Source of the DNA: Saccostrea echinata
Lineage: Eukaryota
Reading direction: 5' to 3'
DNA length: 64,000 nucleotides
Assembly (NCBI RefSeq): GCF_033153115.1
Contig: NW_026889779.1
Coordinates: 9,920,001 to 9,984,000, forward strand
Shown here one piece after another: positions 41,635 to 63,800 of the stretch; the first letter of the stretch is position 1; the number at the start of each line of letters is the position of its first letter. Below the pieces are notes generated by a model. It saw nothing but the letters and a program-made list of their open reading frames with translations. It did not search any database and was not told the origin of the DNA. A program made the translations under genes and the position numbers.

Positions 41635-41971
41635 GGACATACGCAACGTACCTTACCTACTGATAATTTTTCAAAATATTCTTAATTTAAGATCATAATG
41701 CCATCAGATGTTCATAGACAAAAAATCAACATGCATTACCAGGGGTTTTGAAAAGATATCAATTGATGAAAATTCTTGTATAATTTGAAGAAAAATATAC
41801 AAAAATTACTAAACATATATTTTAGATGTTTTGTTTATCAAAATTTGTTTTGGAAGAAGAGTACAACAGGATATATAGACATTAAAATGTAGCACACAGT
41901 TCCTTTAAGTATTGGAACTCTTCAACACCAGGGAAAAAGGCAATAAAGTTCAAACTATGTTGCGTATGTCC
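41635..41971. mobile_element. Kolobok-like MITE (337 bp) inserted in the LINE
   Basis: TIR GGACATACGCAAC(G/A)TA (15/16). TTAA at 41631-41634 and 41972-41975. GG...CC termini with TTAA fit Kolobok rather than piggyBac (CC...GG). Removal restores YNLKGHTLES. Confidence 0.85.
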
Positions 41972-42227
41972 TTAAATTATAATTATATTTTACAGGTGTG
42001 CGAGATCTGGTGATACTGAGTGAACTACATTTTTGAGGATGAAATTGCATCCCCCAGACATGTTCCCAATTAGCTAAGGAGTCGAGATCTTTTTGAAGCC
42101 TTGTATAAGATGTAACAGATGATGGTAAGTCATTTATAAAAATTAAAAATAGAAGGGGCCCAAGGACTGACCCTTGAGGAACCCCACTGACCACAGGCAT
42201 TGGACTGGATACCTCACCATCAAGGAC

Positions 42228-44102
42228 TATGGAATGCCAAATTAACATATATTCAAATATTTGAACCTATCTTCAATTAATTATACCTATCTTCAAATCA
42301 ATTGTACCTATCTTCAAATCAATTGTACCTATCTCCAAATGAATTAAAGATAGGCTTAATTCAATTATACCTATCTTTAATTGAATTGAAGATAGGTACA
42401 ATTGATTTGAAGATAGGTACAATTGATTTGAAGATAGGTGCAAATGCCATGAATTTAAGATAGGTATAATTGATTTAAAGATAGGTGCAATTGAATTGAA
42501 CCTATCTTTAAATATAAAGATACTGACAATAACAACTACGAGGGTTGTCCAAAAAGTTCGTGGACAATGGCGTTTTTGTCAAAATGAATGGTTCAAGATA
42601 TGCTTATTGTATACCAAAATACTAGTTATGAAAATCCAAGTCGGAATAGTTTGGTTTTTATCGTTTGAACTTAATATTTCTGTAAAAATCTCGGTCATTA
42701 AAGGTCGCCGATAGTGCGCACGGACCAGGGTTAAAATGCCATGAACTTTTAAATAAAATGATCTGATTGAAATGATTATATTCTTTTTAAAACGAGTCAA
42801 AACTGAATAAAAATTTAATATATCACAAATGAAGCGGTTATCGCCATTTTTTGATACCTTTTGATCGCTTACTAAATAGACAATGAAAATATTAAGTGAA
42901 AACAGCAAGAAGTATGTTTCAAAAATTGACAGAAAAAGCGACGTAGGCCATCCGAACGGGACAGCGTCCAATCATACAATTATAGTTAATATGGTTGAAA
43001 CGTCGTCAAAAACAAAATATTTATTCAAACAACTTAAATTTATTGGAAAATATTTAGTCTAGTGATTTGTAATTGGTGTATACGATTTTTCAACGGTGTG
43101 TAAAATTTCGGAGACTCTACAAGAAATGGAAAACCATTGTTATTTGATAAAATAGGATATATTCCTATTCATGACGTTGTTATAAATATAGCGCCGTCGG
43201 CTGGGCTGTGCATCCTGTGTTTACGAAGTGTTAATATAGATGACGCTCGTAAATTATTGTGTATTGTTTTGAATTTTAAAACTTAAATTAATTATAATCT
43301 ATACATAAATATTATTGCACACATTTGGCAATGTGGCATAATAAAGAAAAATAGCGTGCGTCTATGAACATGCGATAAAAAATCAAAATTCATATTTCTG
43401 ATGTTATCATGAAATAAGCGTTACGTCAGTCTGGCCCGTGCGACTTGCATATACAAAGTATTTACACCTATAAAAGGCTATAATGTTCAGTAAATAGTGT
43501 GCATTGTTTTAATTTTTTGTACATTTACTCAATCATGGTCTATATTAAGATATTATCGTACATGTTTGCCATTGCGGACTTTATAAAGAAAATTAAGCAT
43601 TTGTCCACGAACTTTTTGGACAACCCTCGTACTCCCCATAAAAATGTACTGTGCATTTCCCTCCATGTTCAAGTCGCTGTTAGAGGGAGCTTTCATGATC
43701 ATTATTTTCAATAACACAAAACGAATTGAACCTAGGTATAATTGAATTGTACCTATCTTCAAATCGTTTGTGGATATGTTACAATTGAACCTATCTTCAA
43801 ATCAATTGTACCTATCTTTAAATCAATTGTACCTATCTTCAAATGAATTGAAGATAGGTATAATTCAATTGAACCTATCTCTAATTGAATTGAAGATAGG
43901 TGTAATTCCATTAAAGATAGGTGTAATTTATTTGAACCTAGGTTTAATTATTTAGAGATAGGTATGATTATTTACACCTATCTTTAATTCAATTGTACCT
44001 ATCTTCAATTCATTTGGAGATAGATTCAATTATTTGAAGATAGGTACAATTATTTGAAGATAGGTTCAAATATTTGAATATATGTTAATTTGGCATTCCA
44101 TA
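42228..44102. mobile_element. non-autonomous IS3EU-like DNA transposon (~0.78 kb net of nested MITE)
   Basis: Perfect 49-bp TIR TATGGAATGCCAAATTAACATATATTCAAATATTTGAACCTATCTTCAA. 6-bp TSD AAGGAC (42222-42227, 44103-44108). Many ~21-bp ACCTATCTTCAAATCAATTGT subterminal repeats in both orientations. TAY...RTA ends with a 6-bp TSD fit IS3EU. Confidence 0.85.
42539..43629. mobile_element. non-autonomous Tc1/mariner element (1091 bp) nested in the IS3EU-like element
   Basis: Perfect 29-bp TIR CGAGGGTTGTCCAAAAAGTTCGTGGACAA. TA at 42537-42538 and 43630-43631. No transposase ORF. Confidence 0.92.
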
Positions 44103-44663
44103 AAGGACAACCTGTTGTACTCTGTTGCTGAGAAAAGCAGAGATCCACCTCCAGGTGTTGCCACGTATCCCATAATTATCCAACTTCCTCAGCAACTTCT
44201 GGTGAGGCACCTTGTCAAATGCCTTTGAGAAATCCAGAATGATCAGATCAGTTTGAGTGCTTGAATGTAAATTTTTCAGTAATTCATGGCTAAGAGTAAG
44301 TAGCTGAGTTTCGCAACTTCTCTTAGCTCTAAATCCATGTTGGCAGTCTACTAAAATATCATGTTGGTCTAAATGGTTCAAGACGTTGCTGACAACTATT
44401 TGTTCTAACAGTTTACAACAAATACATGTTAATGAAACAGGTCTGTAACTACTTGCCAAATATTTTTCCCCTTTTTTGAATATAGGAATAACATTAGCTT
44501 GACGCCAGTCTGCAGGTACTTCCCCTTGTGCCAGTAAAATGTTAAAAATGTGTGCAAGGTGTGGAGCAAATTTAGATGCGTATTGTTTCAGATTGCGAGC
44601 TGCATGGTATTTCATCTGGCCCTGTCGCTTTACTAGGATCTAAGTTATCTTGTAATTTTTGTG

Positions 44664-47316: not shown

Positions 47317-48027
47317 AAATCCTGTCCCACTCGTGAAATAAATTCCATTTCCAAAAAAAAAAAAAAAAAAAAAAAAAGGAATATCCTTTATCTATCTGTC
47401 ACCTGAGCATCGACATCTATGCATCTTACTCCAAGATGAAGAATTTCCCGCCACTGGTTGTTAAATCTTCACGAAAAATTCGGTGCAGCCTATATGATTT
47501 GACATCTCCGTATTATATTCCAAAAAATATCGTTGTCCCTTTTTTCAAAACAAATATTGCATGTATATTCTGATGGATAAGTTATAGCCTGTCTGGTCTA
47601 AAAAAAATTTGGACGAACTCAATAAAAGCACAATTTACAAAAGTGATGCTGATCAACTTTTTGGTATCAAGTCTAAAATTTCTAAAAGAAGAGACACAGA
47701 AACATGGAAAATATTCAGGATGAAATAAAGTAAAAGAAAATCAAAGAAACTTTCAGACTATAGAATGTTTGCAATATAATTATTAAACAAACTATCTCCC
47801 ATAATTCAGGGGAGTCATTTGACATAGGGAAGGCGAAATGAATCGAAAGGGCGGGGGGGGGTGTCTAACTAACCTGTTTTGACTTAAATAATGATAAGAT
47901 TTTCGCCAAAATCTTTATATTTTTTGGTCATAAGCCTAAAAGCACCACTTCTCGGTTTATAAAGCGTAAACTGCCCCAACCCAGGTTATACAGTATAACT
48001 TAGACTGCTATTAAATTCATTCCTTAA

Positions 48028-48355
48028 GGTCAGACGACACGTTCCTCAAATATCTGTTCTTGCATTCCTTTGTAATATACCAAAAATATTTATAATTACC
48101 ATTATATTTTGATTTATGAACTATTTTCAAAATGTTTGAAAAATATATATACCAAAAATCGTGATATCACCAGTTCAAGTGATCTCTATAGGATAGGATT
48201 ATATAGGAAACACCATCCTCCGGAATCTTTGCACAAATGCCTGGTATAATGTACAGGGTCTCAATTTTTTGTGAGGAAACTTGTTAAAGTAGCAATATTT
48301 CAATCACAAAATCTTTGGAAAAGTTATATATTTCTGAGGAACGTGTCGTCTGACC
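48028..48355. mobile_element. Kolobok-like MITE (328 bp)
   Basis: Perfect 21-bp TIR GGTCAGACGACACGTTCCTCA. TTAA at 48024-48027 and 48356-48359. Confidence 0.88.
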
Positions 48356-48572
48356 TTAAGTAGGCTGTCTGAAATTAATTCTACGTTTTACCTCACCTGA
48401 AAGTTCAAAAACCTACGAGGAATGGGAAAAAAAATCAAGCAAATAAAAATTTCAAACACAGTTCATGAATAAGAAAGAGAATATTAATCAGAGTTATACG
48501 TATAAACTTACTGTTTCAATTTATTTATTTTTTTATATATATTAAATTATTAAATCGGACACTTCAAAAGAG

Positions 48573-48730
48573 ACTCGACAGGCACACATCATTGAATAAA
48601 CTTTGAATCAACGTTGATTATATATGTTGATTCAACGTTCAGTTTATGTAAGATTGTGAAAATTTGGTTCAACGTTGAAATCTTAACGTTGATTCAATGT
48701 TGAAAATCAATGTTGGTTAGACATTGAATA
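48573..48730. mobile_element. terminal fragment of a DNA transposon with AACGTTGA subterminal repeats
   Basis: Cluster of TCAACGTTGA/ATGTTGA motifs after GGCACAC. No second end or TSD found. Confidence 0.5.
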
Positions 48731-49039
48731 ATTTTTTTTTTGGGGGGGGGGTCATTACTTATTCAAAAATTTAACTGTATATCAACTAAGATGCCTTCAT
48801 AATTATATAAATGAAAACATACAGTATATTGTAAACATTTAATCAACTTCCTATCAATAGAACAGTTACAATAAACAATGAATAAATTTCACAAAAATGC
48901 ATTTTATAAATTAATCATGGTGCAAAACCCGAACATTTTACAAAAGTTTTGTATTCTTACATGTGGACGAGAAATAGTCCAATTCATGAAAACATTCAAA
49001 GACAAAATAAACATTTCTTTTAAAAATATACATTTGTAA

Positions 49040-49185
49040 TGTGAGGACACGGACGCTTTAAAAATCGAGAACGGGTTGTCTAATGTTTTGTTGTGAATTA
49101 CTTTACGTACGCGTTACTTTGGAAGCTTACAGGACACTCTTTGACAATAATAATGTATCTTTGTGGTTATTGTCAAAAATAGACG
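49040..49185 (+). promoter_or_regulatory. candidate promoter / first non-coding exon of the plus-strand gene
   Basis: CpG-retaining patch ending ACG|GTATGT. Downstream sequence becomes T-rich and CpG-poor, like a plus-strand intron. Inference only. Confidence 0.25.
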
Positions 49186-49539
49186 GTATGTTGTAATCTG
49201 ATGGATTTGTTTTGATCTGTTATGTAAAGCCCGATGTCATTCAATTTTTTATACTTACAAGGTCGGATTTTTTCGTGTGGACCTAAGTGTAAAAAAGGAA
49301 TCTTCGACAGGTCTAACGTACTGCACATATGTGTCCACTTGTATTTCCTGGGTAATGTTTGTAAGCTATTGCGTCCCAGGAAGAAAATACTTTGTATAGA
49401 GGAAAATAATACTCGTTAAAAGTCTTTTTTATCATAAGCATTTTTTATTTTTTTTTTCTTTCTAGCAACACAACCCCTGTCCTACTTTTAGTTTAGTTTC
49501 TGTTTCAGTCATAAGTCATTAAGTCGTATGAATTAGAAG

Positions 49540-51803
49540 CAGGGTTGGCCTGGAATTACCAGTGGTAAATACCAGTATTTCATGTCCAGGTAAATACTAC
49601 AAAATTTCTCTAAACTTGGAAATGTTGGGAAATACAATGTTAAAGTGATTTTTTTTTATTTCTTTAATTCACTCAATCTTGTGCAAAATTCAGAAATAAA
49701 ATAAACAGAAAAACAGAAGATGAATAATACTGAATATGTCTCAAACTGCAATTTAATATATTCAGAGTGTATCACTACTCCAGGTCCCTTGTTTCCCTGG
49801 CTGTTTATTAAGAAAAAATTCGAAGTTTAATTCAAGTTTGTTTTCAGTTCTGAAAAATTATCAAGTTTGTTAATTATAAATCCAAGAACAAAATAAACTT
49901 GTTTTAATCCTTCATTCAATTGTGTAGTTATTACAGTCAATCATGTTGTTTTAACAGATTGCTCTGGACAGTTTGTGCTCCTGTTTTGAGAGGTTTACTT
50001 CGAGTAGAACTGAAAGGCCTCTTCTTTTTTAACGATTTTCTTGGATCCTTCTTTAGTTGCATAAAAAACCCAATTGAATCTTTGGGTTCAATTCATGGAC
50101 CTTTATAGACTACATCTGACTCGATGTCTGCTTTTCCGCAAATAGAAAGAATGTTCTATCATTAAAATGTCCTACGAACCCAGTTTTACGATAGAATGTA
50201 TTCTGTGTATTGGCAATGTAGCAAAGCAAACATGGGCGATAACTCTCAGTGCATTTACTTGAAAAATCCAAAAGAGTTCTGAATGCCAATATGGCATGTA
50301 AATTTGAAGCGAATAAAAAAAACATTGAGAAAAGTGTTGAATTCTTCCATTATGTGGATTAAATTTTTAGGTGAAATGTATCCACAGCCTTAGAAAGGTT
50401 TGTTACAGTAACAGTTATGATTAATTTGATGGTTATTTTCAATGCAACAGGGTTTTAAACTAACTTGTAATCCTTGATAGCTATGTGGGCTACTGAACCT
50501 TGCAATTCCACATCAAAATTTATTTGCCCACAGATTATCACACCTTTTATTGAATATAAAAACAACAACCCCATTTATCGTTTTTTTTATCATATGCTTC
50601 GTGTTTCTTTTCTATCTTGACCCGTCAATGCCACATTTTGCCCGACACAATCACTTAGACGCTTTATGTATAAGTACTTCTTACGGTTAATGATAAAGCA
50701 CTTTACTGATTAGGAAATTTTTCAAGAGAAAAATACAAAACATTAGGACAAAATTGAAAAACAAATATTTATTATTGTAAATTTTCTAATCGCCATGTGG
50801 GCAACTTGAACGTAATTTTAAGTCGCCCACATGGAACATTAGTCGCAAATTGCGAGTGGGCGACTGTTAATTTCAAACCCTGTGCAAATTCATTGAGTTT
50901 CTCCAAAATTGTTTGGAAGCGATTCTGCAATTTTCTGCCACATTGCGGGTATATGGGAGGCATTCTAACTGTGATGAGGGCTTGTCTTGAGACACAGATT
51001 ATTCTAACTATTCCGAAACTACTCCCTACTGCTTTTCTGCGATTGGTTTTTACTATATGTTATGTGTTATCTCCTCTATGATACGTCCTTTTCAGGATTT
51101 TTAAATGGTCATGGTTAGCAATTAACATCAAACGATTGCCGATATTTACCTGTTTTTACCTGCATTTCCCACAGAGCATTCTACTCGGTAGTGAGTACTA
51201 AATCACATTGTGATAAAAAATTGAATGAATCTCACATTTTACACTTAAATTTGGAGCTTGCACTAGATGAGAAAATGTGCATATTTGTTCTGTCGACTTT
51301 GGAAAATCTAGATCAGTGCTTGTTTTCAATCTTTGTTTTATTCAGTGCGATTGTTTTTAAATCAATTTTCTTATTTTGTGTTTTACAAGACTTATTTTGC
51401 TTAAAATCCACCTTCCATGTCCCCGCAGTAAGCAAGGGGGCAACAACTTTTACCTGGCTAACAGAAGAGGCAGGGAAAAAAAGTTGAGGAAAAGCAAAAA
51501 AAAGAAAAGCTGTGTCAAATCGCGTAAAAGGGAAACTGCGCATGACTGATATATGATTAAACATTTTATGATTATATAAAATGAATTACTTGGAAACCAG
51601 AAACTTTTAAATCATTGACAGTGATACCAGGTAGATATCTTAACCAATAAGGTGTACTACATGTCTATACCCGGACAAATATTAAAATTATGAAATATGT
51701 AGCTATTTCTTATTTCCCAGGAAATACCAGTAATTCCCGGGAATTACCAGTATTTCCCACTGTCCTGGGAAATATGAGTATTTCCTGGTTTTTTGCAACC
51801 CTG
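49540..51803. mobile_element. non-autonomous hAT element (2264 bp including nested MITE)
   Basis: CAGGGTTG...CAACCCTG ends. Perfect 8-bp TSD ATTAGAAG (49532-49539, 51804-51811). Subterminal TACCAGT/GGGAAAT repeats at both ends. Confidence 0.9.
50448..50882. mobile_element. CAGGG-ended MITE with 5-bp TSD (hAT5-like), nested in the hAT element
   Basis: TIR CAGGGTTTTAAACTAAC / GTTAATTTCAAACCCTG (15/17). TGCAA at 50443-50447 and 50883-50887. Confidence 0.8.
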
Positions 51804-51963
51804 ATTAGAAGCATCTCCATGATTTATCTATGCTTTACGTGTTTTTCAAGTTTTTATTCAAAGGCTTGGATTTTAGATGGGGAATCTTTTATTTTCTTAG
51901 AAAGCTTCAGGGTTATCCATTAAGAGAATTTCAGTCAGTTTTGCCATTTCTTTTCTGTATGTT

Positions 51964-52311
51964 TGTCGCTATCAGACATGTTTAATCACTGGTGGCCAGA
52001 TAGCTCAGTTGGTAGATCACCTGACTAGAGATTCAGGGTGCCCAGTTTTGAATCCTGGTCTGGTCCATCATATTCTTCTCCTCTCTTGTTATATTTGGTG
52101 CCATGCCATGTCCTTGAAGTGTCAGGTGAAAGACCTACTAGGGAGGAGCCTGGATTGGCATCTTAGGGGCTAGGAATGTGGCGGTCAGACAGGTTCGATC
52201 ACCAGTGGCTAGATAGCTCAATTGGTAGAACACCTGACTGGAGATTCAGAGGGGGAGGTGTGTGTTTGAATGCAGGTCTGGCCTGTCTCATTTTTCTCCT
52301 CTCCTGTTACA
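51964..52311 (+). mobile_element. TRIM (miniature LTR retrotransposon) with tRNA-derived LTRs, Helenus/biv-TRIM-like
   Basis: LTR1 51964-52093 (TGT...GTTATA) and LTR2 52177-52311 (TGT...GTTACA) align end to end. PBS TGGTGCCATGCC at 52096. Purine-rich AGGGGCTAGGAA before LTR2. 4-bp TSD TGTT (51960-51963, 52312-52315). Each LTR holds a tRNA-like A box and decayed B box. Confidence 0.88.
51994..52066 (+). pseudogene. tRNA-like cloverleaf inside LTR1 (not a functional tRNA gene)
   Basis: Acceptor stem GGCCAGA/TCTGGTC, A box TAGCTCAGTTGG, anticodon stem CCTGA/TCAGG with an 8-nt loop CTAGAGAT, decayed T arm CCAGT-TTTGAAT-CCTGG. Confidence 0.8.
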
Positions 52312-52711
52312 TGTTCATAAATACATGTGGCAGTATTCACTGACATTAGGGCAACATTTCATATGATACTATTCAATTATTTTTTCTTCTTTAAAACTAT
52401 TTTAAGTAGGAAAAAATTCCATCAGAAATTAACCTCATACTCTTCCTTATAGGATTTTTTTTTTTTATAAGCAAGAAAAAAATGTTGTGTGCTGTTTCGT
52501 GCTTTATCTGACAGTTTCAGAGAATGAGATCCATTGCAACTTCTCAAGTCTTTCCAACAAGCTTGGAAAAAACCTTAAATTTGTTAACATCACCAGATGT
52601 AAAAATTTTATAGAAAATGGAGTTGCTTCTTATCATTCTAAGTAGTAAGTATTAGCTAAATAGAGTTGATTGCCTTGTCTGAAGTATTTTTATGGTTAGA
52701 TCATTGTATTC

Positions 52712-53461
52712 CAGGGTTTTTTTTAGGGGTCGTAGGGGGCCTGTAATAGGCCCCATTCCCAATGGTAAAAAGTAGGTGTTTTTCCCAATTTCATAAAAGA
52801 AAATTCCCAAAAGAGAATCAAAACAAACAAATATGGTTAAAAAATGGCTGAACTCATTAACGTTTACAGGGTTCGAAATTCACTATATACAACTCGCAAA
52901 ACGCGAGTTAGAATTCCTAAATTGCGAGTTAAAAATTAGGTAACTTGCAAAAACTTGCGAGTTGATTTTTCTTGCATTGAAACTGTAGAAAAATTATATA
53001 ATATGACAAAACACAATGCTTTTGATTTAAATCAGTAATTTAAATAAAAGCCACACTGTAGTTGTATTTTGTGTATTGTACAGTTACTTTTTCCTTAAGT
53101 TACATGTATTTAATTTATATAAATTTAACTTTATATGAAAATTGCGAGTAGTCTTATAAAATTGCGAGTTCACTTTCTTGGTACTCGCAATTATTTGCGA
53201 GTTGTAATTTTAGGGAGTTTCTAACCCTGGTTTATCAGGAATGATGTTCAAAAAAAAAATCTAAAAGGTATGCTCCAAAAACTGATTGACTGAACGTAAA
53301 ATAAGTCAATAAATACCTTGCAAATGAAAAAAAACCCTCTTATTTGAATTTATTTACAAAAATATGAAATATGATATTCTTCCCAATTTCAACCAAAAGT
53401 CGCTATTTTTCCCAAATGGAAAGGCCCAGGCCCTTGGTTTTAAGACCTAAAAAACCCCCTG
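52712..53461. mobile_element. CAGGG-ended MITE with 5-bp TSD (hAT5-like)
   Basis: CAGGGTTTTTTTTAGG / CCTAAAAAACCCCCTG. TATTC at 52707-52711 and 53462-53466. TTCCCAA subterminal repeats. Confidence 0.82.
52867..53229. mobile_element. CAGGG-ended MITE with 5-bp TSD nested in the previous element
   Basis: CAGGGTTCGAAATTC / GAGTTTCTAACCCTG. GTTTA at 52862-52866 and 53230-53234. TTGCGAGT subterminal repeats. Confidence 0.85.
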
Positions 53462-53684
53462 TATTCAATGAAGTCTAGCTCCATGTTCTACAGATAAGAG
53501 GTGTATCAAATTAATTTCAATGTTTTATGAAAAGGGGGGTTGTCATGGATGCCTACGTACCACATTTGAAGTTGTTTTTCCATTTGTTGGAAAGGCAGAG
53601 GTTGTGATTGAGAGTAATATATGGATTCAGAAAACCACAGAGTCCACAGTGTAGTGATTCAGAAAGTCAGGACACACCATTAAT

Positions 53685-54474
53685 GAAATACGGAGATAAC
53701 GAACAGAAATCAAACTCAAAAGTCCATTGATAATACAAATTGGGAGCAGAGCAAACATAGACCTCTAAAACGTCAGAGGTGGGATCAAGTGCCATGGAGG
53801 AGTAAGCATCCCCTGTTGGCTGGTCACACCTGCCATGTGCTCCTTGTCGTGATCAGGCAAATGGGAAAATCCTTAGACAATTCAGTGTGTAAATAATGAC
53901 CTAAAAATTGGTGTGAAAAACATCAGTCAGCATTCAACTTAATGATAGATTGTATTTTATGACAAAGTCAGTGTGTTGACCATAGAACTTGGGAAATGAT
54001 AACTTTAAATGAGGCTTTTGATATATCTGTTTCATCAACTTTTTTTGTCAATAGCTTGCCTTGTTTTAGAAATTGTTCGTACATAGACATGCTCTTGCAT
54101 ATCGAATCAACTAAACAACTGGGATACATAAACCTCAAATACAGGTGATAAGGGAATATTGCTGCATAAAATAGGGAAGTTGACGATAGAAAAGTTGAAG
54201 TCATCACATTTATCATAAAGTTTTGTTGTTAGGTTACCATTCATGTCTTTTACTAGTAATATATCCAAATATGGAACAGATGTGTCAGACTCTGTGGTGT
54301 TTTTTATTTCAAGTTCTCTTGGATATATCGAGTCGACATATGAATGGAAGCAACTATTGTTAATTGGTAATATCTCGTTGACATACATATCTAAATGTTG
54401 AGTTGAAGGCCACAGCAAGTGTTTTCTTCTTCTCATGTAGAAGTTTTTGAATAAATTTTGCTTCATATGAATAC
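53685..54474 (-). pseudogene. 5'-truncated Penelope-like retroelement: RT C-terminal/thumb region plus 3' end
   Basis: Across frameshifts: YSYEAKFIQKLL...AFNSTFRY(V)NEILPINN (decayed RYIDD)...IYPRELEIKNTTESDTSVPYLDI...TKLYDKCDDFNFSIVNFP..CSNIP...VYVSQL...YEQFLKQGKLLTKK. This is the typical PLE RT motif order. Confidence 0.85.
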
Positions 54475-56047
54475 AGATTCTGTGAAATCAACAGCAACAT
54501 TGAATGATACACATTGAAGGGTATATTATTCATTGTGTTTATGTAACAGTCCAGTATATAACAGTAAATATGTCAGAGATAAACAGGGTATAGTAATTTG
54601 TTTTAAAAGTGAACAAAGAAAACTAAACTAAACTATACAATTATTTAAAGGAATTTGAAATCAGAAAATGCAATTTATAGTAAATTTAATATGAATCCAA
54701 TTTCTTTTCCCTCCCAGATTTTTGTCCTTTCCTAAAGTTATAATTTCCAAAGAGGTATCTGTTACACGTTATAGAGGTCAAAATATTTTGTAGTCAAACT
54801 TAGTTGTTGCTCCTTCACTGCATATATATTTCAATATGAATGTCAATTTACATGAAGCCATCATTAATTTTTTTTTAATTGATGTACTCTGACCTTCATA
54901 TTTCAAGGAAGGTTTTTTTCAGACTTATAAATTCATTGATGTTAATTTCATTATAATGTATACAAGGAACAGCTATATATATTTAATATTTATTGCTATA
55001 AAATAATTTTTAATCTAAAAACGTGTCTTTCAGAAATGAAAAATCTTGACTTGAAAAATGATAAGGACAATCTGTATTTCCCTGGGAACAAAAAATGACA
55101 TTAAAATTTAAAGTACTGAAAAATTAGCGAGTAGGTTTGATTTTGATGGGTCAGTCAGAGTACATCAAACAAAACATTTTTTAACTGTTGACCTGATTTA
55201 GTATGATGTTTCGTTCAATAACGGTATAGATTTTTCAGTCTAAACCTGGCATAAGCATTAGATTGTAATTTTTTAGAAAATTCTACTTAACTTACTTTGT
55301 AACAATGTTTGACTTATATGTAATTACAAAGGCAGAACATTAATTTTAGCAACAATTAGAGTCAAAGTATAATTTGTAAATTAAAGGTCAATATTTAGTG
55401 TTGTAAGGAGATTTTGTTGTTAATGGAAATTATTGATTTAATTTTAAACTTAATCGTTAAAGTGCATCAGTATTTTAAAAGTTTCTGAGCTATATACCTG
55501 AATAACAGGTGTACTTTTTGTTTTTAAATTATTTAATCAAAATGAAGTAAAATGACACGTACATTATTTACAAATACATACAGTACTTATGTCGTTATGC
55601 TATGATTTGAACATGTACAGTGTAATTGCTGGTGTTCTTAATGGAGATGTTCTTTTTACCATGTACCCCTCCCCTTATTATGCTTTTAAAAAAAAATATA
55701 ATTAAGAATTATTTTCCAGTTCTTAGTGTACAATGACAGTAAAAGAACTGTTGGTGAATGACTGCTAAATAGCTCTTTTAACACTGTAGCTTATCAGGTG
55801 CATACAAGCGGCTAGTTTCTGACAAAAATTGAAATATTTTCATTTCCATACTCTAGCCCTTAATTTTATCACACATAAGTATAATCTTGTGATATTTGTA
55901 TTATATCAGTTTATGTCACCTTCAATTTTATCACATTATTTGATAATGATGGGTCTGTTTTTCTCTATGCAAATTGGATTAAAAATATACATTTGAACAC
56001 ATGAAGAAGATCAGCAGAGTATAGAGCATAGAAATAGTATTAAATAG

Positions 56048-56640
56048 TTTTCAGCTCACCTTAGCCAAAGGCTAAAGTGAGCTTTCCTGATCAAAATTTG
56101 TCTGATGTTGTTGTGAACTTTTCACAATATCCTTTTCTTCTCAAGAACCACTTGGCCAACTTAAACCAAACTTGGCACAGAGGATCCTTGGGTCATTAGG
56201 ATTCAAGATTATTCAAATAAAGGACCACACCCTCTTTAAAAGGGAGATAATAAGAATTTGTGAAAATTTGATGGCATCTTTTAAAAAACTTCTTCTCAAG
56301 AACTATGGTGCAAAAAAAGATGAAACTTAAAGCTTCATTAGATAGTTTAGAAGCAAATTTGTTCAAATCATGACCCCTGTGGGTAGGGTTGGGCCACAAT
56401 GGGTGATCAAATTTTATATAGCAATATATAGGAAAGACCTTTAAAATCTTCTTCTCATGACACATCACATATAAATATGGAAGCATCCTCTGGTAGTGTA
56501 AATTCAAGTTGTTCAACTCATGACCCCCAAGGAAAGGAAGAGCTGTGCAATAGCGATCAAAGTTTTACATAGGAATATATGGGGGAATTTTTTTTTTACA
56601 GGTCTTCTCAAGTATAAGAAAACCATGATAAGCCATAATT
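56048..56640 (+). mobile_element. older HINE copy: 5' end plus ~3 degenerate Cg170-like repeats
   Basis: AGCTCACCTTAGCCAAAGGCTAAAGTGAGCTTT start and TCAAATCATGACCCC...GGGCCACAAT units homologous to 37949-39292. A matching 3' end lies at 59509-59540. Confidence 0.8.
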
Positions 56641-57900
56641 ATAAATATTTGATTGGTGTTACTATGGTTACTACAAGTAGAATTGTTGTGAAATACATTC
56701 AAAACGTCACTACCCCTACAGTTTTGGGAATTCAATAAAAATTGGCACACATGTAGATTAATTAGGCCAGGTAAAATTAATCTTTAGATTCTCATCCCCG
56801 CCCGCCCCTCTCAAAGTGCCCCGCTCCGTTGTTTTTTATTTTGATTTTTGGGTGTCAAAAGTATTTTCATGTATTTTTATTCAGCAAGAATTTGGGTCAA
56901 AAGTTAAGAGTTATCTTACATCTGTATTAAAAGTCGCGTGGCGCTATTTATAGCAAAAAGCCATGTGAACAATGGAGAAAAATCAGCAATAAAAGCAGTT
57001 TAAATACGAAAGGAAAAGATAATTTGTCAGTAAAGAGAAGACAGAGAAGCAAAAATAACATAAAGACATCTAGATACTATCACTGGCATGAGCAAGTTTT
57101 TAAAGAGATTTCAACCAAGTAAAAACAGAAGAAGAAAATGACACCAGGACAAGTTTTAACGATCTCCTGTTGTACTTGTATGTGATTTTGCATTTAAAAA
57201 AAAGACATCGTCGGCAGACTTTAGAGAATAATAGTGCAAAGGAAATGTTAAATCTTAAAAATGTTCAGGCCTAGGCTTTCAGTTGAATATTTTACAGATT
57301 TTGCAAATATGACATATGATTTTGTTTGGCGTGTGCCGTATCTGTTTACTTGATAATTTGTTAATAGAACTATAAATATTTTAATTTTTTATAACAAGAA
57401 TCTTCTGTAGACATTTAAAGGATATGAAAACAATAAAATCTATTCATATTGGCATTAACATAATGTAAAGATTTTGTGTACGAAGAGTGTTTTGTTGATA
57501 CTTTCAATTACAAAAAATAAAAAATAAAATCCGCCCACCCGCCCCAATTTTTTAAGAAATTAGGATGAGAATCTAAATTTTAAATTTATGTGGCCTTACA
57601 CTGAGATACATAATTCTATTTATCAGTTTTTGATTTTGGTGAAATGTTGCCTTGGTTACTAAAAAAAAGAAATTTCTGTGAAATACTTTTAAAATGCTAC
57701 AACCCCCACAGTTTGGTTTGATTTTTATATAACTTGGCATGCAAATATATTACACTGAGATACATATTTGTCTTTATCAGTTTTTGATATTGATGAATGA
57801 TGTTGCCATAGTTGCTAAAAATAGAAATTTCTGTAAAATTCTTTCAAAAGGCTACTCTTCCTACAGTTTTAGTCTGATTGCAATAAATCTTGCCACAGAA
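56640..57900. repeat. degenerate ~155-bp tandem repeat interrupted by a MITE; further copies at ~60350-60650
   Basis: CTGAGATACAT at 57601 and 57755. The unit GTTGCCATRGTT...TGTGAAAT...CTAC..CTACAG recurs. Removing 56765-57598 restores ATTACACTGAGATAC. Confidence 0.7.
56765..57595. mobile_element. PIF/Harbinger-type non-autonomous element (831 bp)
   Basis: Imperfect 33-bp TIR GGCCA...TTTAGATTCTCATCC. TTA at 56762-56764 and 57596-57598. CCGCCCGCCC subterminal motifs. Confidence 0.82.
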
Positions 57901-58256
57901 AGAGACTAAACCAAGGATCATTTATATTTTATTTTTTGCTAATGCAAAGCTTCAAGTCCTACTGCTACTTTTCTCTTCCTTTGTTATAGGTACAAACCAG
58001 TAGAGCTAGAGTCTCATCAGAGACTTCTGGTTATGTATTTGTCATATAATCAAGTCTTGTCTGAAAAGTTGCTCAGAATAAATTTTTTGCAAGCTTGGTT
58101 TTCCTTAGTATGTTTCCACATGTAGTAAACAATGCTTGAAAAAAATCCTAGTTTTTAAAGAGCATACTTAGTATCAGTCCTTCATCCTTATCAGAAGACC
58201 ACATTTCTGCTTTAACATTTTTAATTGTCAAAATTTTTCCTCTTTAGTACATGGTA

Positions 58257-58388
58257 CAGTAAAACTCAGTTATAAGGACATTTTAGTTCCTTATAGCTAA
58301 AATTCTTTATATCCTTATATAAGGTGATAAAAAATCCTTATAACTAGGATATCATTATATTCGAATTCTTTATAACTGAGTTTGACTG
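58257..58388. mobile_element. pogo/Tigger-type MITE (132 bp)
   Basis: TA-CAGTAAAACTCAGTTATAA...TTATAACTGAGTTTGACTG-TA. Confidence 0.85.
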
Positions 58389-58702
58389 TATATTAGAGAC
58401 AATGCCATATAAATGTGGTTCAGGATTTAAATTTCTTTGTCTCACAAGCTTTCATTCCATTATTTATTCATGATCTAGATCTTTGATGCTGATCAGTTCT
58501 CTGTTACAGTTGGGCTGATCGCAGTAGTAACATAAAACATGTATACATGTATTTGTTGATCTTGTGTTGAAGACAGTAGTTAAATCCTGCATTTTTGATG
58601 ATCTGTACTGTACGGACTTGGATGTTCCAAAATGTAACTCCCACTGTATCCTTTTCACCTGTATACTGATGTTGTGGGATTGATTTTTACCTGTATTTCC
58701 AG

Positions 58703-58953
58703 ATACATGTATGTATCAGTAATTTCCTCTGATGCTATATCCGATCAACAACTGGAGCTGCAGTGATAGAACAGTGGATCAGTGTTCATGAAAACTTGAA
58801 AAGGTAAGATACCATACCTGTATAAATTACAAAAAAGTGTACAGAAAACATTGACAAGTATGTATATATACCAGAAAGTTTGATGAATGAAAAAGAAGGA
58901 AGTACTTGAAATGTTTGACATATAAAACCACAAACACCACTTAGGATTCAAAG
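58703..58953 (+). other. candidate 5'-UTR exon (alternative donors after 58803 and 58953)
   Basis: Acceptor TTTTTACCTGTATTTCCAG; donors AAG|GTAAGA and AAG|GTAAGT. Lies upstream of the coding exon at 62631 on the same strand. Confidence 0.35.
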
Positions 58954-59176
58954 GTAAGTGAAAAATGAATGCAATTGTACAGATCAGTGTAGTTATAGTG
59001 TTTCACTTCATCTGTCTTTATGTGTATTTGGATGTAATATGTCTATATTTATTTTATAAATTCTTTTTATAATTTACTGTTTTGAATATGTTTAAATACA
59101 GTATCTTACATATAAGTTCCACTTATAAAAAGTTTTTTGTTTACAAGCATTTGGTAGAAGGAATACTGTAGGGTTA

Positions 59177-59265
59177 TTGAACTTATATTGGTGAATATTG
59201 GCAAGAGTTGGCAGTACAAATATGCATGAGCTTGTGAGTGCCAGTATTCACTAAGATAAGTTCAA
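59177..59265. repeat. 27-bp-arm inverted repeat, relic of a palindromic (Crypton-like) element
   Basis: TTGAACTTATATTGGTGAATATTGGCA...TGCCAGTATTCACTAAGATAAGTTCAA (3 mismatches). Confidence 0.65.
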
Positions 59266-60649
59266 CTGCTGCTTTATTAAACAGCTAAATCATTTTCCCA
59301 TTAATTTATAATAATTAAATTGAATAACTCAACATTAATGAAAATTTTCCAGTATCAGTATTTAAACTAGATGCTGTCATAAGACAGTAATACCTGCACT
59401 AAGGTGTTTGCCTCTAAATACACACTCCTTCATATTTGGGTAACCAATTAAAAAGCCACAATTCTATAATTTATACGGTAAATATACAAGTCAAATCGAG
59501 CATAAAATGCTCAGGTGAACATGTGGCCCAAGGGCCTCTTATGTAAGTATTTCATATACTAAATATATTACCAGTTTGAAATTACAGAATTCAATTGATG
59601 ATGTAAATAATTTTTATTTTAAAAAGGGGGGGGATGTAAATTTTGGCCCGTAATTGGAACTTTTTAAATTTATTTTCAAAATAACATATGATTATTTTTA
59701 GTGCATAACATTTTTGATGAACTTAAAAAAATTAAGATGCCAATGAATTGATCAAATTGTGCAAACTTTTATCAGTATTTGAGTTGGCAAAAATCCTCTA
59801 CAAAACCCAAACCCAGTCGATTTTGTCATCCCCTCCAATTTGCCTGTTTTGGGGGAAAAAAAATTGCACAAGATGTACAGAAATATTCTTTGTGATTATA
59901 AAATTTGTAAACATATTATGTTACACCTTTTTGAAAATTTCTAGACCCGCACCTCACATTGGACTTGTGTCACCCTACGAGTACTAGTTTTACCATTATC
60001 ATTATTGGATTGCACATGGTGTACACATCATCATATCAGTAGGAATTAATTCATAGTGTGTTTTAATTGGATTATATTTAATGAAGTTGACAGAACCTAT
60101 GACAAGTGGCAAGTACAAGTTTAGGTATAGAATGGGGTAAAATTATCTGAAATGCAAATGATTAGGTTATAGTTTAAAAAGGGTCGAAGATCAATGGATG
60201 CCACATGCAAGTTATACATTGAAGCAAGTTCCTGGGGGTCATTTCCATTCCCTGGATATGGAAACAATCAATTTGCTTTAAATGAAATCAGAAACCCCAA
60301 AGCTGTCTTTGTATTATGACAAATTAAATGGTATAAGGGGACATTTGTTCTTTCAAAACTCTACTCCTTCTACAGCTTTGACCCTGGATTTCATTAATAC
60401 TTTGAGAAAGAGTAGACTTTACTAAGATACATAATTCTGTTTATCATTTTTGGATTTCCTTGAACACTGTTGCCATAGATAGTAAAAAAAAAGATATTTT
60501 TGTGAAATTCATTCAAACTGCTACTCCTCTTAGAGTTTTGGTTTGATTTTAATAACTTTGTGCACAATCAGCCTTTAATAATGTACATAATTCAATGTTT
60601 ATCAGTATCTGATTTCCATGAATGATGTTGCCATGGTTACAAAAAGTAG

Positions 60650-61345
60650 ATTAAAAATGCAGAAAAAATATCATTTTTTGACACCTATTTGCCCCCAAGA
60701 TAAAAATGAAAATTCCAAAAACCTTATTGCACATCTACAGGACACCATCAATCATCTTCCAAAAGATGATTAGGGTACTGCATAAAATGTAAGAAAAGTT
60801 CTGGGAACCAGGGTCTTTTTTTTGTACTAAAAAAACATCATTTTTCAACCCCCATTTGACCCCCAGAGTGAAAATGAATCTACAGGACACCACCAATCAT
60901 CTTCCAAAAGATGAATAGGCTACTGCGTAAAATGTAAGAGGGTTTCTGGGAGCCAGGTCATAGTAAAAAAAAAAAATCATTTTTCGTCTCCCAGGGTGAA
61001 AATGAAAATTCTGAAACCTTATTGCACATCTACAGGACACCACCAATCATCTTTCAAAAGATGATTAGGCTACTGTGTAAAATGTAAGAGGAGTTCTGGA
61101 AACCAGGTTTTTGTGGAAAAAACATCATTTTTTGGGGGTCCCGTTTTGCCCCTGGGGTAATATTTAAGATTCCAAAACATCATTGCACATCTACAGGACA
61201 CCATCTATCATATTCCAAAAGATAAATTTGTCACTGCTTAAATAAAAGAGGAGTTTGAGGAAGAATAAAGTGTGACAGATGGATGGACGGACGGAGCAGG
61301 GTAACAACGGTATACCCGAATTTTCTTTAGAAAGTGTGGGTATAA
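60650..61345 (-). mobile_element. second Helentron/DINE-1-like family with ~4 internal 145-161-bp repeats
   Basis: Minus-strand start TTATACCC...GGGTATA hairpin followed by (GTCC/ATCC)n. TCTACAGGACAC recurs at 60734, 60879, 61029 and 61190. Confidence 0.8.
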
Positions 61346-61561
61346 TTAAAATTGCAATATCAGAATCTGTCCTGGATGTGTTCAATTTCTCCATCATCAT
61401 TCCATTATCTCTACCAAGCATTATGATTTGCTTATTGAGGTTTTTATTTAGGCTTATAGGTACTAAATTATTAATTAATAAATTCCATTTGTGTGAAAAT
61501 AGGCACATCTTACCTAGCTGCCACTACCCATCATAAGTATTGCCATTGAGTGGATGACCAG

Positions 61562-61778
61562 GCTCCAAGACCATAAACTGAGAACAGACTTAAGTCAAAA
61601 TTTTAAATCAATATAATTTTTTAAATGATTTTGATAATGAAATAAATTTTTGTCCACGTGTATGGATTTTTGTAATAAACACACCAGCAAAGTTTCATGC
61701 ACATAAATTAATTAAAACTCAAGATATTTAAAATCAAAATTTTGACTTAAGTCTGTTCTCAGTTTATGGTCTTGAGGC
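61562..61778. mobile_element. PIF/Harbinger-type MITE (217 bp)
   Basis: ~43-bp TIR containing CAAGACCATAAACTGAGAACAGACTTAAGTCAAAATTTT. CAG at 61559-61561 and 61779-61781. Confidence 0.87.
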
Positions 61779-62300
61779 CAGATGACATTTTTTGGCTTAC
61801 AATGTGTCGTTCGATATTGAACACTCACATTCGGAATGTTAAAAGACATATTCATATACATATTGCAAACTTAGCGTTCAATAAAACACCAAAATATTGA
61901 ATGGTAAAATTCTCAAGATTTTAAGTATTTTTTTTTATTATTATTATTATAGACCAATTATAAGCTATATGTGTATAATACAAGGGAATGTTGGCTTTAA
62001 AACATTTTTACCAGGTTACCTCTATATCCTCTTACTAAGAGCTGTAAACAAGAATAATTTATATATTCACCCAGAAAATTTAATCAAGATATGTGACTTT
62101 CTGTAAAAAATATATGAGATCAGTCTACAGAATTTTGGGACAACCCTCTTATGTTTATTTGCTTATGTAATATATGTTTTTTTTTTTTAAAAATGTATGT
62201 TTGATGATGAAAACTATTCTGTGAATTTACTTGAAATGTCCAAAAATGTCTGTGATTTGTTGATAAACATAATGGTTTCGCATTTTCTGTAATTTGGAAT

Positions 62301-62541
62301 AAAATGACACAGCACTTGCACTTTCTGTTCAAGTCGGAGCATATTTTATCCATAAATAAAAATATACAAATTAGAGTGCATTTCTTAATTTAATGGTCCA
62401 TGGGAATTCACTTGATAAGCTTATATTATCCTTTGGAGATAAATGACACAGCACTTGCATTTTATGTACAAGTCAGAGCATATTTTATCCACAAAGAAAT
62501 ATATACAAATTAAAGTGCATTTCTTAATTTAATGGTCCATG
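62301..62541. repeat. direct duplication of ~100 bp, period ~140
   Basis: AAATGACACAGCACTTGCA...GTGCATTTCTTAATTTAATGGTCCATG occurs twice. Confidence 0.85.
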
Positions 62542-62664
62542 CAAAAAGATTTCTATCTTTAAAATTGGGGTCTCTTTTTCTCTCTCAATTTTACAAAAAA
62601 TTTATACTTTAATCAAAATTTTGACTGTAGATGCTGCAGAAATAGAGTTTGAAGAGTGAAAGCA

Positions 62665-62811
62665 ATGGTATCTCCATGGCGATTACGTGTAATTCCCAAC
62701 AGTCGACAGCTCTTAGTTCTGGCATGCCTTCTCTTCCTATTCTGGTGTATGACACTTTATCGGGTTTCCAATATTAATCCTGCAAGGCAGAAGGAAAGTG
62801 AAGTACTTAAG
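62665..62811 (+). CDS. probable first coding exon of a type II (signal-anchor) membrane protein, e.g. a Golgi transferase-like enzyme; gene continues beyond the window
   Basis: Acceptor TTTTGACTGTAG before 62631, GCAATGG start, 49 codons MVSPWRLRVIPNSRQ-LLVLACLLFLFWCMTLY-RVSNINPARQKESEVLK, phase-0 donor AAG|GTTAGT. Basic short tail, hydrophobic span and polar stem. Confidence 0.65.
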
Positions 62812-63011
62812 GTTAGTATCATTTACTTACATAATCAAGAGATGAAAATTCTTGCCATATTAGATATCAATAACTGTAAAATGTTGAAGGCAAATCAGTT
62901 AAAGTGAATCAATAGACCATTTTCAAATTATTTCCTCTCAAGGAATTATTTAAACAATAAAATGCTTTGGTTGTTAGTATGGGAATTAATGTTGCAGAAA
63001 AAATACAATTA

Positions 63012-63187
63012 CAGTCAAACCTCATTATCTCGAACTCGATGGGACCAAGAAAAAACTTTGAGATATCCGAGAGTTTCAGATATCGAGGGTAAAATACTTA
63101 AAGAAATATGCGGTTAGGACTTCCCAATCACTTCGACATATCCATGGTATTCGAGATATCCGTGTTTGACATACCGAAGTTCAACTG
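63012..63187. mobile_element. pogo/Tigger-type MITE (176 bp)
   Basis: TA-CAGTCAAACCTC...GAAGTTCAACTG-TA with TTCGAGATATC subterminal repeats. Confidence 0.85.
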
Positions 63188-63533
63188 TATGTAATTTTTT
63201 TCTGCAATAGCTGCGACGTTAATTCTTGTACTAACAAACAAAGAAAGACATTTTATTGTTGATATTTACATCTGTACAAATAATCATCTAAAGTAGGATT
63301 CAGCAGATTAAAAATTGTATTATTGACATGTACGTCATTGTATGTTTCATTGAGTACAGCCACTACTCAAGAAATCATTACAGGTGAAATGTTTAGTGTT
63401 GTTTATTGACTGATAAACGGCAATGGTTTTCTTAACAAATAAAGGAGAAAATATTCAGTGGATGACTGGATGTAAATAAAGTAAGAGTAATGCAATAGCT
63501 TAGACCTTAAAAAGATGGGTAACTTTCTATATA

Positions 63534-63630
63534 CAGTAAAACTTGGTTATAACGAAGTCACTGGGACCTGTGAAATCACATTATTATATCCATAATCTGT
63601 TATATCTGTATAAGGAATTCGTAAAATTTA
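63534..63630. mobile_element. left part of a pogo-type MITE related to 58257-58388
   Basis: TA-CAGTAAAACTTGGTTATAACG. Right end not within the window. Confidence 0.6.
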
Positions 63631-63634
63631 TATA

Positions 63635-63800
63635 TAGAGGATATTCAATGTTTTGTAGATGAATATGGAATTTATTTTACGAGTGGGACAGGATTTTGAT
63701 ATTTTCATGAGTGTGAAGCACGAGTGAAAATATAAAAAAATCTTGTCTCATGAGTGAAATAAATTCCATATTCATCTTCAAAACATTGAATTTTCTGTTA
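63635..63800. mobile_element. long subterminal palindrome of a Crypton-like non-autonomous element; related fragment at 47317-47350
   Basis: ~55-bp arms ATTCAATGTTTTG...GGAATTTATTT...GGGACAGGATTTT / AAAATCTTGTCTCA...AAATAAATTCCATATTCATC...CAAAACATTGAAT around TTTTCATGAGTGTGAAGCACGAGTGAAAA. The family name is tentative. Confidence 0.6.

What the first reader, a model, noticed from the sequence alone, without database searches (positions are those of the whole stretch)
51964..52311. 348-bp LTR retroelement whose LTRs each contain a tRNA-like sequence (Pol III-promoter TRIM)
Seen: what looks like two tandem tRNA-SINE heads is TGTT-[LTR 130 bp]-PBS-83-bp interior with purine tract-[LTR 135 bp]-TGTT. 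LTR1 folds a full cloverleaf with an 8-nt anticodon loop; LTR2 is more decayed in the T arm. The PBS TGGTGCCATGCC matches 10/12 of TGGTGCCGTGAC, the complement of the tRNA-His 3' end. Known: Cassandra TRIMs carry 5S-derived LTRs, and I recall tRNA-bearing TRIMs (Helenus, biv-TRIM) with 4-bp TSDs in animals, so the class is rare but probably not new. Inference: Pol III-transcribed and mobilised in trans by a tRNA-His-primed Gypsy-type element; the diverged LTRs indicate an old copy.
Basis: partly seen in the sequence, partly recalled or inferred. Interest (0 to 1): 0.7.

Follow-up and report, generated by a model that had tools for sequence, protein, structure and literature searches.

The report
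Decayed oyster Helenus mini-retrotransposon copy
This is an old, broken copy of Helenus-1, a tiny gene-less jumping element described from oysters in 2024, whose two end repeats each hold a tRNA look-alike; other copies in this genome carry a copy of the host tRNA that primed them, and the family is likely moved by a Gypsy retrotransposon with the same priming signals.

Summary
The feature is real but already described. Window 51964-52311 is TGTT-[130-bp LTR]-primer site-83-bp interior-[135-bp LTR]-TGTT, with a tRNA-like unit in each LTR. It belongs to a dispersed family: 28 of 39 insertion sites have an exact 4-bp duplication, and solo LTRs and tandem arrays occur. Young copies match the published Helenus-1_SaGl consensus (Kojima 2024) at 126/130 (LTR) and 99/103 (interior), counted by eye. 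This copy is decayed: LTRs 103/130 alike, most CpGs lost, both B boxes damaged, polypurine tract mostly deleted. Points I did not find in that paper: (1) some copies have their primer site rewritten to the exact 18-nt complement of mature host tRNA-His, repeatedly and independently; (2) a young Gypsy family shares the primer site, 15/16 of the purine tract, the LTR tips and the 4-bp duplication, making it the likely helper; (3) hybrid copies point to co-packaging. Pol III transcription is untested; every LTR carries a T5 run that would have to be read through once. The helper is inferred. Known family, modest mechanistic extras.

The parts
51960..51963 (+). left target-site duplication TGTT
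   Evidence: sequence; family makes 4-bp duplications, 28 of 39 sites
51964..52093 (+). 5' LTR, 130 bp, TG...TA (family TG...CA)
51994..52066 (+). tRNA-like unit of the 5' LTR: A box at about 52001-52012 intact, B box at about 52044-52054 mutated (now holds a T4 run), 8-nt anticodon loop
   Evidence: Rfam RF00005 40.3 bits, E 9.3e-07; alignment with young copies
52073..52077 (+). broken T run behind the first tRNA-like unit (T5 in young copies; predicted Pol III terminator)
   Evidence: function inferred
52096..52107 (+). primer-binding site for tRNA-His(GUG), 10/12 here; young copies have 10 contiguous matches and then a 1-base gap
   Evidence: host tRNA-His genes; Fig S2 of PMC10886601
52111..52143 (+). 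decayed remnant of the family's first interior hairpin (predicted)
52160..52176 (+). deletion junction: 5' arm of the second interior hairpin joined to the last 5 letters of the polypurine tract; about 19 bases lost
52177..52311 (+). 3' LTR, 135 bp, TG...CA, with a 5-base insertion before the T arm
52207..52284 (+). tRNA-like unit of the 3' LTR, T arm and B box destroyed
   Evidence: Rfam RF00005 19.4 bits, below the gathering score
52291..52295 (+). T5 run behind the second tRNA-like unit (predicted Pol III terminator)
   Evidence: sequence; function inferred
52312..52315 (+). right target-site duplication TGTT
   Evidence: sequence

Best explanation
The element is a decayed, likely dead copy of the oyster Helenus-1 family of miniature non-coding LTR retrotransposons, whose intact copies are likely transcribed by RNA polymerase III from the tRNA-like unit in the 5' LTR, are primed by host tRNA-His, and are likely reverse-transcribed and integrated by the particles of a Gypsy family with the same priming signals. 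Steps: (1) Inferred: Pol III starts at the tRNA-like unit of the 5' LTR, reads through its T5 some of the time and stops at the T5 of the 3' LTR. This gives an RNA of about 310 nt with the tRNA-like unit repeated at both ends as the R region. (2) Inferred: the RNA is packaged in Gypsy particles, probably by way of two interior hairpins or the cloverleaf. (3) Shown by genomic fossils: mature tRNA-His, with its CCA, is the primer and is copied into plus-strand DNA, mostly for 18-19 nt. (4) Inferred from conservation: the purine tract primes the plus strand. (5) Shown: integration leaves a 4-bp duplication, and solo LTRs and tandem arrays form. The window's copy has lost most of its purine tract and both B boxes.
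For: Family: 53 matches. Nearly all LTRs begin TG and end CA. Exact 4-bp duplications occur at 28 of 39 sites with two outer flanks, none of 5 or 6 bp, against 15 of 1482 non-self pairings; 4 of these 28 are solo LTRs and 4 are three-LTR arrays. Two copies have identical LTRs (L008, L021). Published identity: 126/130 and 99/103 to Helenus-1_SaGl, by eye; lengths 129/103/361, duplication 4; His primer. Priming: 7 of 9 pattern hits are tRNA-His genes without encoded CCA. Of 92 genomic copies of the 18-mer complement including CCA, 18 sit in Helenus-1-type and 14 in Helenus-2-type elements by my reading. The match stops at 18-19 nt in 85 of 92, as expected from the stop at modified A58 (established retroviral knowledge). 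Eight rewritten copies need 8 changes on the tree, at least 4 forced by well-supported branches. Helper: 19 of the 92 belong to one Gypsy family with protease-RT-RNase H-integrase order and LTR pairs 95.7-99.8% alike. It shares 15/16 of the purine tract and the TGTRG start and GTTACA end, and has exact 4-bp duplications in 3 of 5 full copies. Hybrids: a Helenus-2 5' LTR with a Helenus-1 interior and 3' LTR inside one 4-bp duplication (L077 = L079); a Helenus-2 array carrying about 770 nt of the Gypsy leader and gag between the primer site and a 12/13 purine-tract microhomology (L174). Decay of the window copy against L008: 20 of 42 CpG positions changed against 37 of 301 others.
Against: No Pol III evidence: the two raw RNA runs laid are oligo-dT libraries, from an organism whose reads differ from this genome's family. 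Depth is equal on both strands, 88% of reads run on into unrelated sequence, and no start or end pile-ups appear; this looks like passive carriage in Pol II transcripts. Host tRNA-His genes end at T5-T9 runs, three of seven at T5, so T5 can be a working terminator and read-through is not assured. The helper is not unique: a sister Gypsy family also matches 15/16 of the purine tract and 10 letters of the LTR end, but its one full copy shows no duplication. A third family has a 4-bp duplication and a partly similar tract. The Gypsy chimera L174 involves Helenus-2, not Helenus-1, has no outer duplication, and could be templated DNA repair. Folding z-scores of single interiors are weak (-0.5 to -2.0).
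Confidence: 0.9

Rival explanations
1. Two tandem tRNA-derived SINE heads, or a dimeric SINE moved by a LINE.
For: Each repeat has A and B boxes and a pyrimidine tail; tRNA SINEs are common in bivalves (PMC11481361, search listing only).
Against: Fixed TG...CA ends, fixed 4-bp duplications (28 of 39; none of 5 or 6), primer site and purine tract directly inside the LTRs, solo LTRs with 4-bp duplications, no 5' truncation series or variable tail.
Confidence: 0.01
2. Same element, but its full-length RNA comes from host Pol II read-through or a Pol II start; the tRNA-like unit is kept as an RNA structure (packaging, processing or export signal) rather than as the promoter.
For: A T5 run lies just behind the tRNA-like unit in every LTR and would stop Pol III before the primer site. 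The acceptor stem is kept by changes on both sides between Helenus-1 and Helenus-2, which a DNA promoter alone would not need. Helenus sequence is present in oligo-dT RNA.
Against: A and B boxes are conserved across both families and across Helenus generally (PMC10886601, section 3.5). The RNA reads are unstranded in pattern and mostly embedded in other sequence. The covariation rests on one split between two families.
Confidence: 0.2
3. A functional tRNA gene or pseudogene pair.
For: Young LTRs score 62.6 bits on the Rfam tRNA model and fold a perfect cloverleaf; ARAGORN calls them.
Against: An 8-nt anticodon loop with no assignable anticodon in most copies; always embedded in LTRs; the window copy is not called by ARAGORN. 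The tRNA-like 3' end is not complementary to the primer site (sequence).
Confidence: 0.02
4. The helper is not Gypsy family A but its sister or another tRNA-His Gypsy family.
For: The sister family (L141/L185) matches 15/16 of the purine tract and 10 letters of the LTR end and has identical LTRs; family C has a 4-bp duplication.
Against: Family A is the most numerous of them among the 92 hits (19, against 2 and 3), has exact 4-bp duplications and is the one caught in a Helenus chimera. Family B has a different purine tract and LTR end; family E has a 5-bp duplication.
Confidence: 0.3

Closest known systems
Helenus-1_SaGl, Saccostrea glomerata (Kojima 2024, PMC10886601; I read the whole main text in six parts, and supplement passages, Fig S2 and Tables S1-S3)
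   Same: LTR 126/130 and interior 99/103 identical to young copies here (by eye); same primer site with a 1-base gap against tRNA-His; same purine tract; 4-bp duplication; length 361 against 362-363.
   Different: Three LTR substitutions and T5 instead of T4 are shared by nearly all copies here, so the host is likely a related oyster rather than the consensus's species (inference). The window copy is about 79% like its best relatives and lacks most of the purine tract.
Helenus-2C_CGi and Helenus-2_SaGl / Helenus-2_CGi (same paper)
   Same: Same tRNA-like core, His primer site, purine tract and interior hairpins. A Helenus-2_SaGl-like family also lives in this genome.
   Different: Different U3 part or acceptor stem; different spacer before the primer site.
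Cassandra TRIMs of plants (as described in PMC10886601)
   Same: Non-autonomous LTR element with a Pol III gene sequence in each LTR; tandem arrays.
   Different: 5S-derived, not tRNA-derived; plant; Pol III transcription was shown there and is not shown for Helenus.
biv-TRIM (PMC6934838; first of five parts and word-search passages read)
   Same: Bivalve TRIM with solo repeats and tandem forms.
   Different: 202-218-bp repeats, 77-80-bp interior, no canonical primer site, purine tract GGGGAGA; no tRNA in the repeats reported in what I read.
Gypsy-39_CGi (named in PMC10886601 as a tRNA-His Gypsy)
   Same: Same 18-nt primer site as the Gypsy families found here.
   Different: Only its first 23 interior letters are given in Fig S2, so I could not test whether family A is its orthologue. 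The paper names no helper for bivalve Helenus beyond the primer-site match.

Membership tests
Helenus (TRIMp3) | Two LTRs, whole element under 1 kb, no coding sequence | tested here: met
   348 bp here, 362-363 bp in young copies; interior 83-104 bp
Helenus (TRIMp3) | tRNA-derived sequence with A and B boxes inside each LTR | tested here: met
   Rfam tRNA 40.3 and 19.4 bits here, 62.6 bits in both LTRs of L008; B boxes mutated in the window copy
Helenus (TRIMp3) | Primer-binding site complementary to a tRNA 3' end right after the 5' LTR | tested here: met
   Host tRNA-His genes; 10/12 here
Helenus (TRIMp3) | Polypurine tract before the 3' LTR | tested here: met
   Present in 18 of 19 aligned interiors; the one exception is the window copy, where it is mostly deleted
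Helenus (animal) | 4-bp target-site duplication | tested here: met
   TGTT here; 28 of 39 sites exact, 4 more with one mismatch, none of 5 or 6 bp
Helenus-1_SaGl | Sequence identity to the published consensus | tested here: met
   126/130 and 99/103 for young copies, compared by eye; no program alignment was run
Helenus (TRIMp3) | Transcription by RNA polymerase III | tested here: inconclusive
   Only oligo-dT reads and contigs were on offer; no start or end pile-ups. Also untested in the defining paper.
Helenus (animal) | Mobilised in trans by a Gypsy element | tested here: inconclusive
   Shared signals and chimeras support it; no direct test
tRNA-derived SINE | Single head, LINE-like or simple-repeat tail, variable-length duplications | tested here: not met
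Retrozyme / ribozyme-bearing TRIM | Self-cleaving ribozyme in each LTR | tested here: not met
   No ribozyme family at E up to 1 in L008 or E up to 5 in the window; the 130-bp LTR leaves only 30 and 27 bases beside the tRNA-like unit
biv-TRIM | 202-218-bp repeats, 77-80-bp interior with the conserved TGATCCCAAAGGAC segment, no canonical primer site | tested here: not met
   Lengths, primer site and interior differ

The most novel reading that the evidence does not exclude
This genome holds the first matched Helenus-helper pair in animals, with a fossil record of its reverse transcription. A young Gypsy family supplies the particles. Helenus-1, Helenus-2 and the Gypsy RNA share particles and swap strands at the primer site. 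The tRNA primer is inherited in about one junction in seven, although a review states that Ty3-type elements strictly inherit their own primer site. The LTR cloverleaf with its non-decoding 8-nt loop is kept as an RNA structure, a tRNA mimic that gets the RNA packaged.
Probability: 0.35. Interest if true: 0.5.

Novelty: already known. Interest (0 to 1): 0.22.

Why it matters
The window copy itself is ordinary: a fossil of a family published in 2024. Such LTRs can be mistaken for tRNA genes (ARAGORN calls young copies). The surrounding evidence bears on a question that the defining paper leaves open: how a Pol III TRIM stays tied to its helper when their LTRs share no long sequence. Here the shared part is small and defined (primer site, 16-nt purine tract, LTR tips, 4-bp duplication), and hybrid copies record co-packaging. 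The T5 in each LTR makes a sharp prediction about where the RNA starts and ends.

Tried and rejected
ARAGORN on the window found no tRNA. RNA reads gave no sign of a discrete Helenus transcript; the 'goes back 233' joint there is just the interior-LTR junction, not a circle. Laying RNA on window 47400-64000 showed only repeats and no GT..AG joint among the 15 joints listed of 352, so the gene context of this copy is unknown. No long frame lies near the element. The pattern anchored on ACAnT found no Gypsy helper in 17 hits, because family A has a longer spacer; the looser 18-mer did. No similarity between Helenus-1 and the Gypsy elements beyond the primer site, purine tract and LTR tips, and no clear copy of the second interior hairpin in family A. 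One search used a structure string that was off by one column and is superseded. In one search, duplicates were removed by element sequence, which dropped identical solo LTRs; redid it by flanks. Folding the predicted full RNA gave z = -2.4, with a low-frequency minimum-energy structure in which the two LTR copies pair with each other; I draw nothing from it. Look-ups of earlier findings by place and by sequence returned nothing. I did not establish the host species beyond 'oyster, likely Saccostrea or close' from the family match.

Full report
Observation. The window reads TGTT (51960-51963), a 130-bp repeat (51964-52093), an 83-bp interior, a 135-bp repeat (52177-52311) and TGTT (52312-52315). 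The repeats are 103/130 identical. Rfam places a tRNA at 51994-52066 (40.3 bits, above the gathering score of 29) and a weaker one at 52207-52284 (19.4 bits). ARAGORN calls none in the window, and the first unit's minimum-energy fold is not a cloverleaf. The first repeat ends TA rather than CA.

The family. A search of the window's own genome (923 Mb) gave 53 matches from 40 scored of 1306 first-look candidates, the best others at 79% identity. A search with a young LTR gave 45 matches from 40 of 1678. These are not copy numbers, and the loci are best hits, not a random sample. In the 60 loci fetched, 47 distinct elements were delimited. I dropped 8 that abut further element sequence. Of the other 39, 28 have an exact 4-bp duplication, 4 more have one mismatch, and none has 5 or 6 bp; non-self pairings match in 15 of 1482. 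The 28 are 20 two-LTR elements, 4 three-LTR arrays and 4 solo LTRs. Young copies are 362-363 bp with 130-bp LTRs, two of them with identical LTRs. Their tRNA-like unit scores 62.6 bits and folds a full cloverleaf with an 8-nt anticodon loop. This rules out tandem SINE heads.

It is published. Kojima 2024 (PMC10886601; whole main text read) defines Helenus as TRIMs with tRNA-derived LTRs, 4-bp duplications in animals, and 51 families in pteriomorph bivalves. Searching its supplement with five short motifs hit Helenus-1_SaGl of Saccostrea glomerata. By eye, L008's LTR differs from it by three substitutions and one T (126/130), and L004's interior by four substitutions (99/103). Table S1 gives 129/103/361 bp and a 4-bp duplication. 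Fig S2 assigns it to tRNA-His with the same 1-base gap. A second family like Helenus-2_SaGl is also in this genome. The host is therefore an oyster, likely Saccostrea or close (inference).

State of the window copy. Against L008, 20 of 42 CpG positions and 37 of 301 other positions differ, and 3 CG pairs remain of 21. About 19 bases of the interior are deleted, removing the 3' arm of the second hairpin and all but the last 5 letters of the purine tract. Both B boxes are mutated. On the tree it is a long branch outside the young group. It is very likely immobile.

Priming by tRNA-His. Seven of nine hits to a primer-site-plus-B-box pattern are tRNA-His(GUG) genes, none encoding CCA. The other two are Helenus copies into which more than 30 nt of tRNA-His were copied with a few mismatches (L061, L062). 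The 18-mer complement of the mature 3' end, CCA included, occurs 92 times, against 0 for the reversed control. I fetched and classified all 92; my reading of that table gives 18 in Helenus-1-type elements, 14 in Helenus-2-type, 19 in Gypsy family A, 2 in its sisters, 27 in other LTR families and 12 unclassified. The match ends at 18 or 19 nt in 85 of 92, which fits the known stop of reverse transcriptase at modified A58 (own knowledge). In Helenus-1 this 'rewritten' site replaces the family's imperfect one at several different junctions. Eight such copies need 8 changes on a tree of 45 rows, at least 4 forced by well-supported branches; the bootstrap had not settled. One array carries a standard and a rewritten unit as sister rows (L009). 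Exact standard junctions number 69, against 11-13 rewritten ones with the same prefix; among similarity-chosen interiors the share is 2 of 41. A review (PMC7472051, section 4.3 read) describes such reversion for mouse ERVs, HIV and MLV, and states that Ty1 and Ty3 strictly inherit their own site. Low-frequency inheritance in a Gypsy-dependent TRIM is therefore a small departure, not a new mechanism.

The likely helper. Family A has gag followed by a pol with protease, RT, RNase H and integrase in Gypsy order, LTRs of about 1.2 kb that are 95.7-99.8% alike in five full copies, and the perfect 18-nt site. Its purine tract matches Helenus-1's at 15 of 16 letters. Its LTR begins TGTRG and ends GTTACA. 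Three of five full copies have an exact 4-bp duplication, one has a mismatch and one has a damaged end. Nothing else is shared. Controls: family B has a different tract and LTR end; family E has a similar tract but a 5-bp duplication; family C has a 4-bp duplication and a partly similar tract; a sister of A matches the tract at 15/16 and 10 letters of the LTR end but its one full copy shows no duplication. So the A clade is the best candidate, not the only one.

Hybrids. L077 and L079 are one site, duplicated. It has a Helenus-2-type 5' LTR (88% to Helenus-2, 78% to Helenus-1), a rewritten primer site, a Helenus-1 interior and a Helenus-1 3' LTR, inside one TAAC duplication. The hybrid thus formed before integration, most simply by strand transfer between co-packaged templates (inference). 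L174 is a Helenus-2 array whose first interior is replaced by about 770 nt of family A's leader and gag. It starts at the primer site and returns to Helenus at a 12/13 match between gag and the purine tract. It has no outer duplication, so templated DNA repair is an alternative.

RNA structure. In 19 aligned interiors two hairpins are 88% paired. The second has 9 cells with changes on both sides at 2 pairs; 0 of 500 shuffles reach that cell count, but 229 of 500 reach the pair count, and the alignment is out of register for Helenus-2 in the first hairpin. The cloverleaf is 93% paired in 16 distinct LTRs, with the acceptor stem kept by double changes between the two families. Relatedness inflates these scores, and the signal rests on few events. 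A packaging role is a guess. The paper's main text has no occurrence of 'hairpin' and does not discuss a terminator for Helenus.

Transcription. The only T runs of four or more in a young element are the T5 just behind each tRNA-like unit. If Pol III is the polymerase, it must read through the first and stop at the second. Host tRNA-His genes use T5-T9. The RNA data on offer could not test this: two oligo-dT raw-read runs and two contig sets show Helenus sequence on both strands equally, mostly running into unrelated sequence, with no pile-up of ends. No exon structure around the window copy was found.

What is in print. Searches: 'Helenus' with 'retrotransposon' gave 6 papers, 5 listed; 'TRIMp3' gave one relevant paper. 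From listings and abstracts I saw no follow-up that names a helper or shows Pol III transcription for bivalve Helenus. I did not open the 2026 papers that mention Helenus (PMC13570524, PMC12859917), the library lacks most subscription journals, and Repbase was not available. Earlier notes of this scan list 145 findings with the words Helenus, TRIM, tRNA and LTR in at least 23 genomes, so the class turns up often.

Verdict. Interest 0.22; the helper and strand-transfer fossils would raise it to about 0.5 if confirmed.

Noticed in passing
L077:1390-1680 (G000:C19 about 529430-529710; duplicated at C23 about 13.2 Mb, L079): Hybrid element: Helenus-2-type 5' LTR, tRNA-copied primer site, Helenus-1 interior and 3' LTR, inside one 4-bp duplication.
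   Followed up: yes
L174 / L189 (G000:C54 about 16810300-16811800, minus strand): Helenus-2 array with about 770 nt of Gypsy family A leader and gag in place of its first interior; a small palindromic repeat element is inserted in its middle LTR.
   Followed up: yes
L061:1501-1540 and L062:1501-1540: More than 30 nt of tRNA-His copied past position 58 into Helenus interiors.
   Followed up: partly
L176, L135, L082, L091 at about 1500: Helenus-2-type LTR, tRNA-copied primer site, then almost directly another LTR with no interior; looks like end-to-end joining of plus-strand strong-stop DNA.
   Followed up: no
L117-L119, L185, L191, L193: Several tRNA-His-primed Gypsy families with open gag and pol frames and LTR pairs 99-100% alike, so recently inserted.
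   Followed up: partly
L008:1504-1526 (U3 of each LTR): A 7-bp hairpin that contains a second B-box-like motif upstream of the tRNA-like unit; role unknown.
   Followed up: no
L008:1610-1622 and L008:1723-1733: The pyrimidine run at the LTR's 3' end is largely complementary to the purine tract and pairs with it in the predicted fold.
   Followed up: no
L063-L069, just 3' of the tRNA-His genes: All seven host tRNA-His genes share an identical 25-nt 3' trailer before the T run, and it could form a hairpin.
   Followed up: no
window 51705-51795: Short A+T-rich palindromic repeat (10-bp units in both orientations) 170 bases upstream of the element; probably a MITE or satellite remnant.
   Followed up: no
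window 44085-44639 and 41955-42266 (minus strand): Fragments of a LINE-type reverse transcriptase (RVT_1, E 5e-17 for the first).
   Followed up: partly
window 56100-56580, 53500-54600, 57400-58500, 62900-64000: Very abundant repeats in RNA contigs and reads; not classified.
   Followed up: no
runs X21 and X22: Reads of organism C carry the letters of the published Helenus-1_SaGl consensus at the positions where this genome's family differs, so the family has species-specific variants.
   Followed up: no
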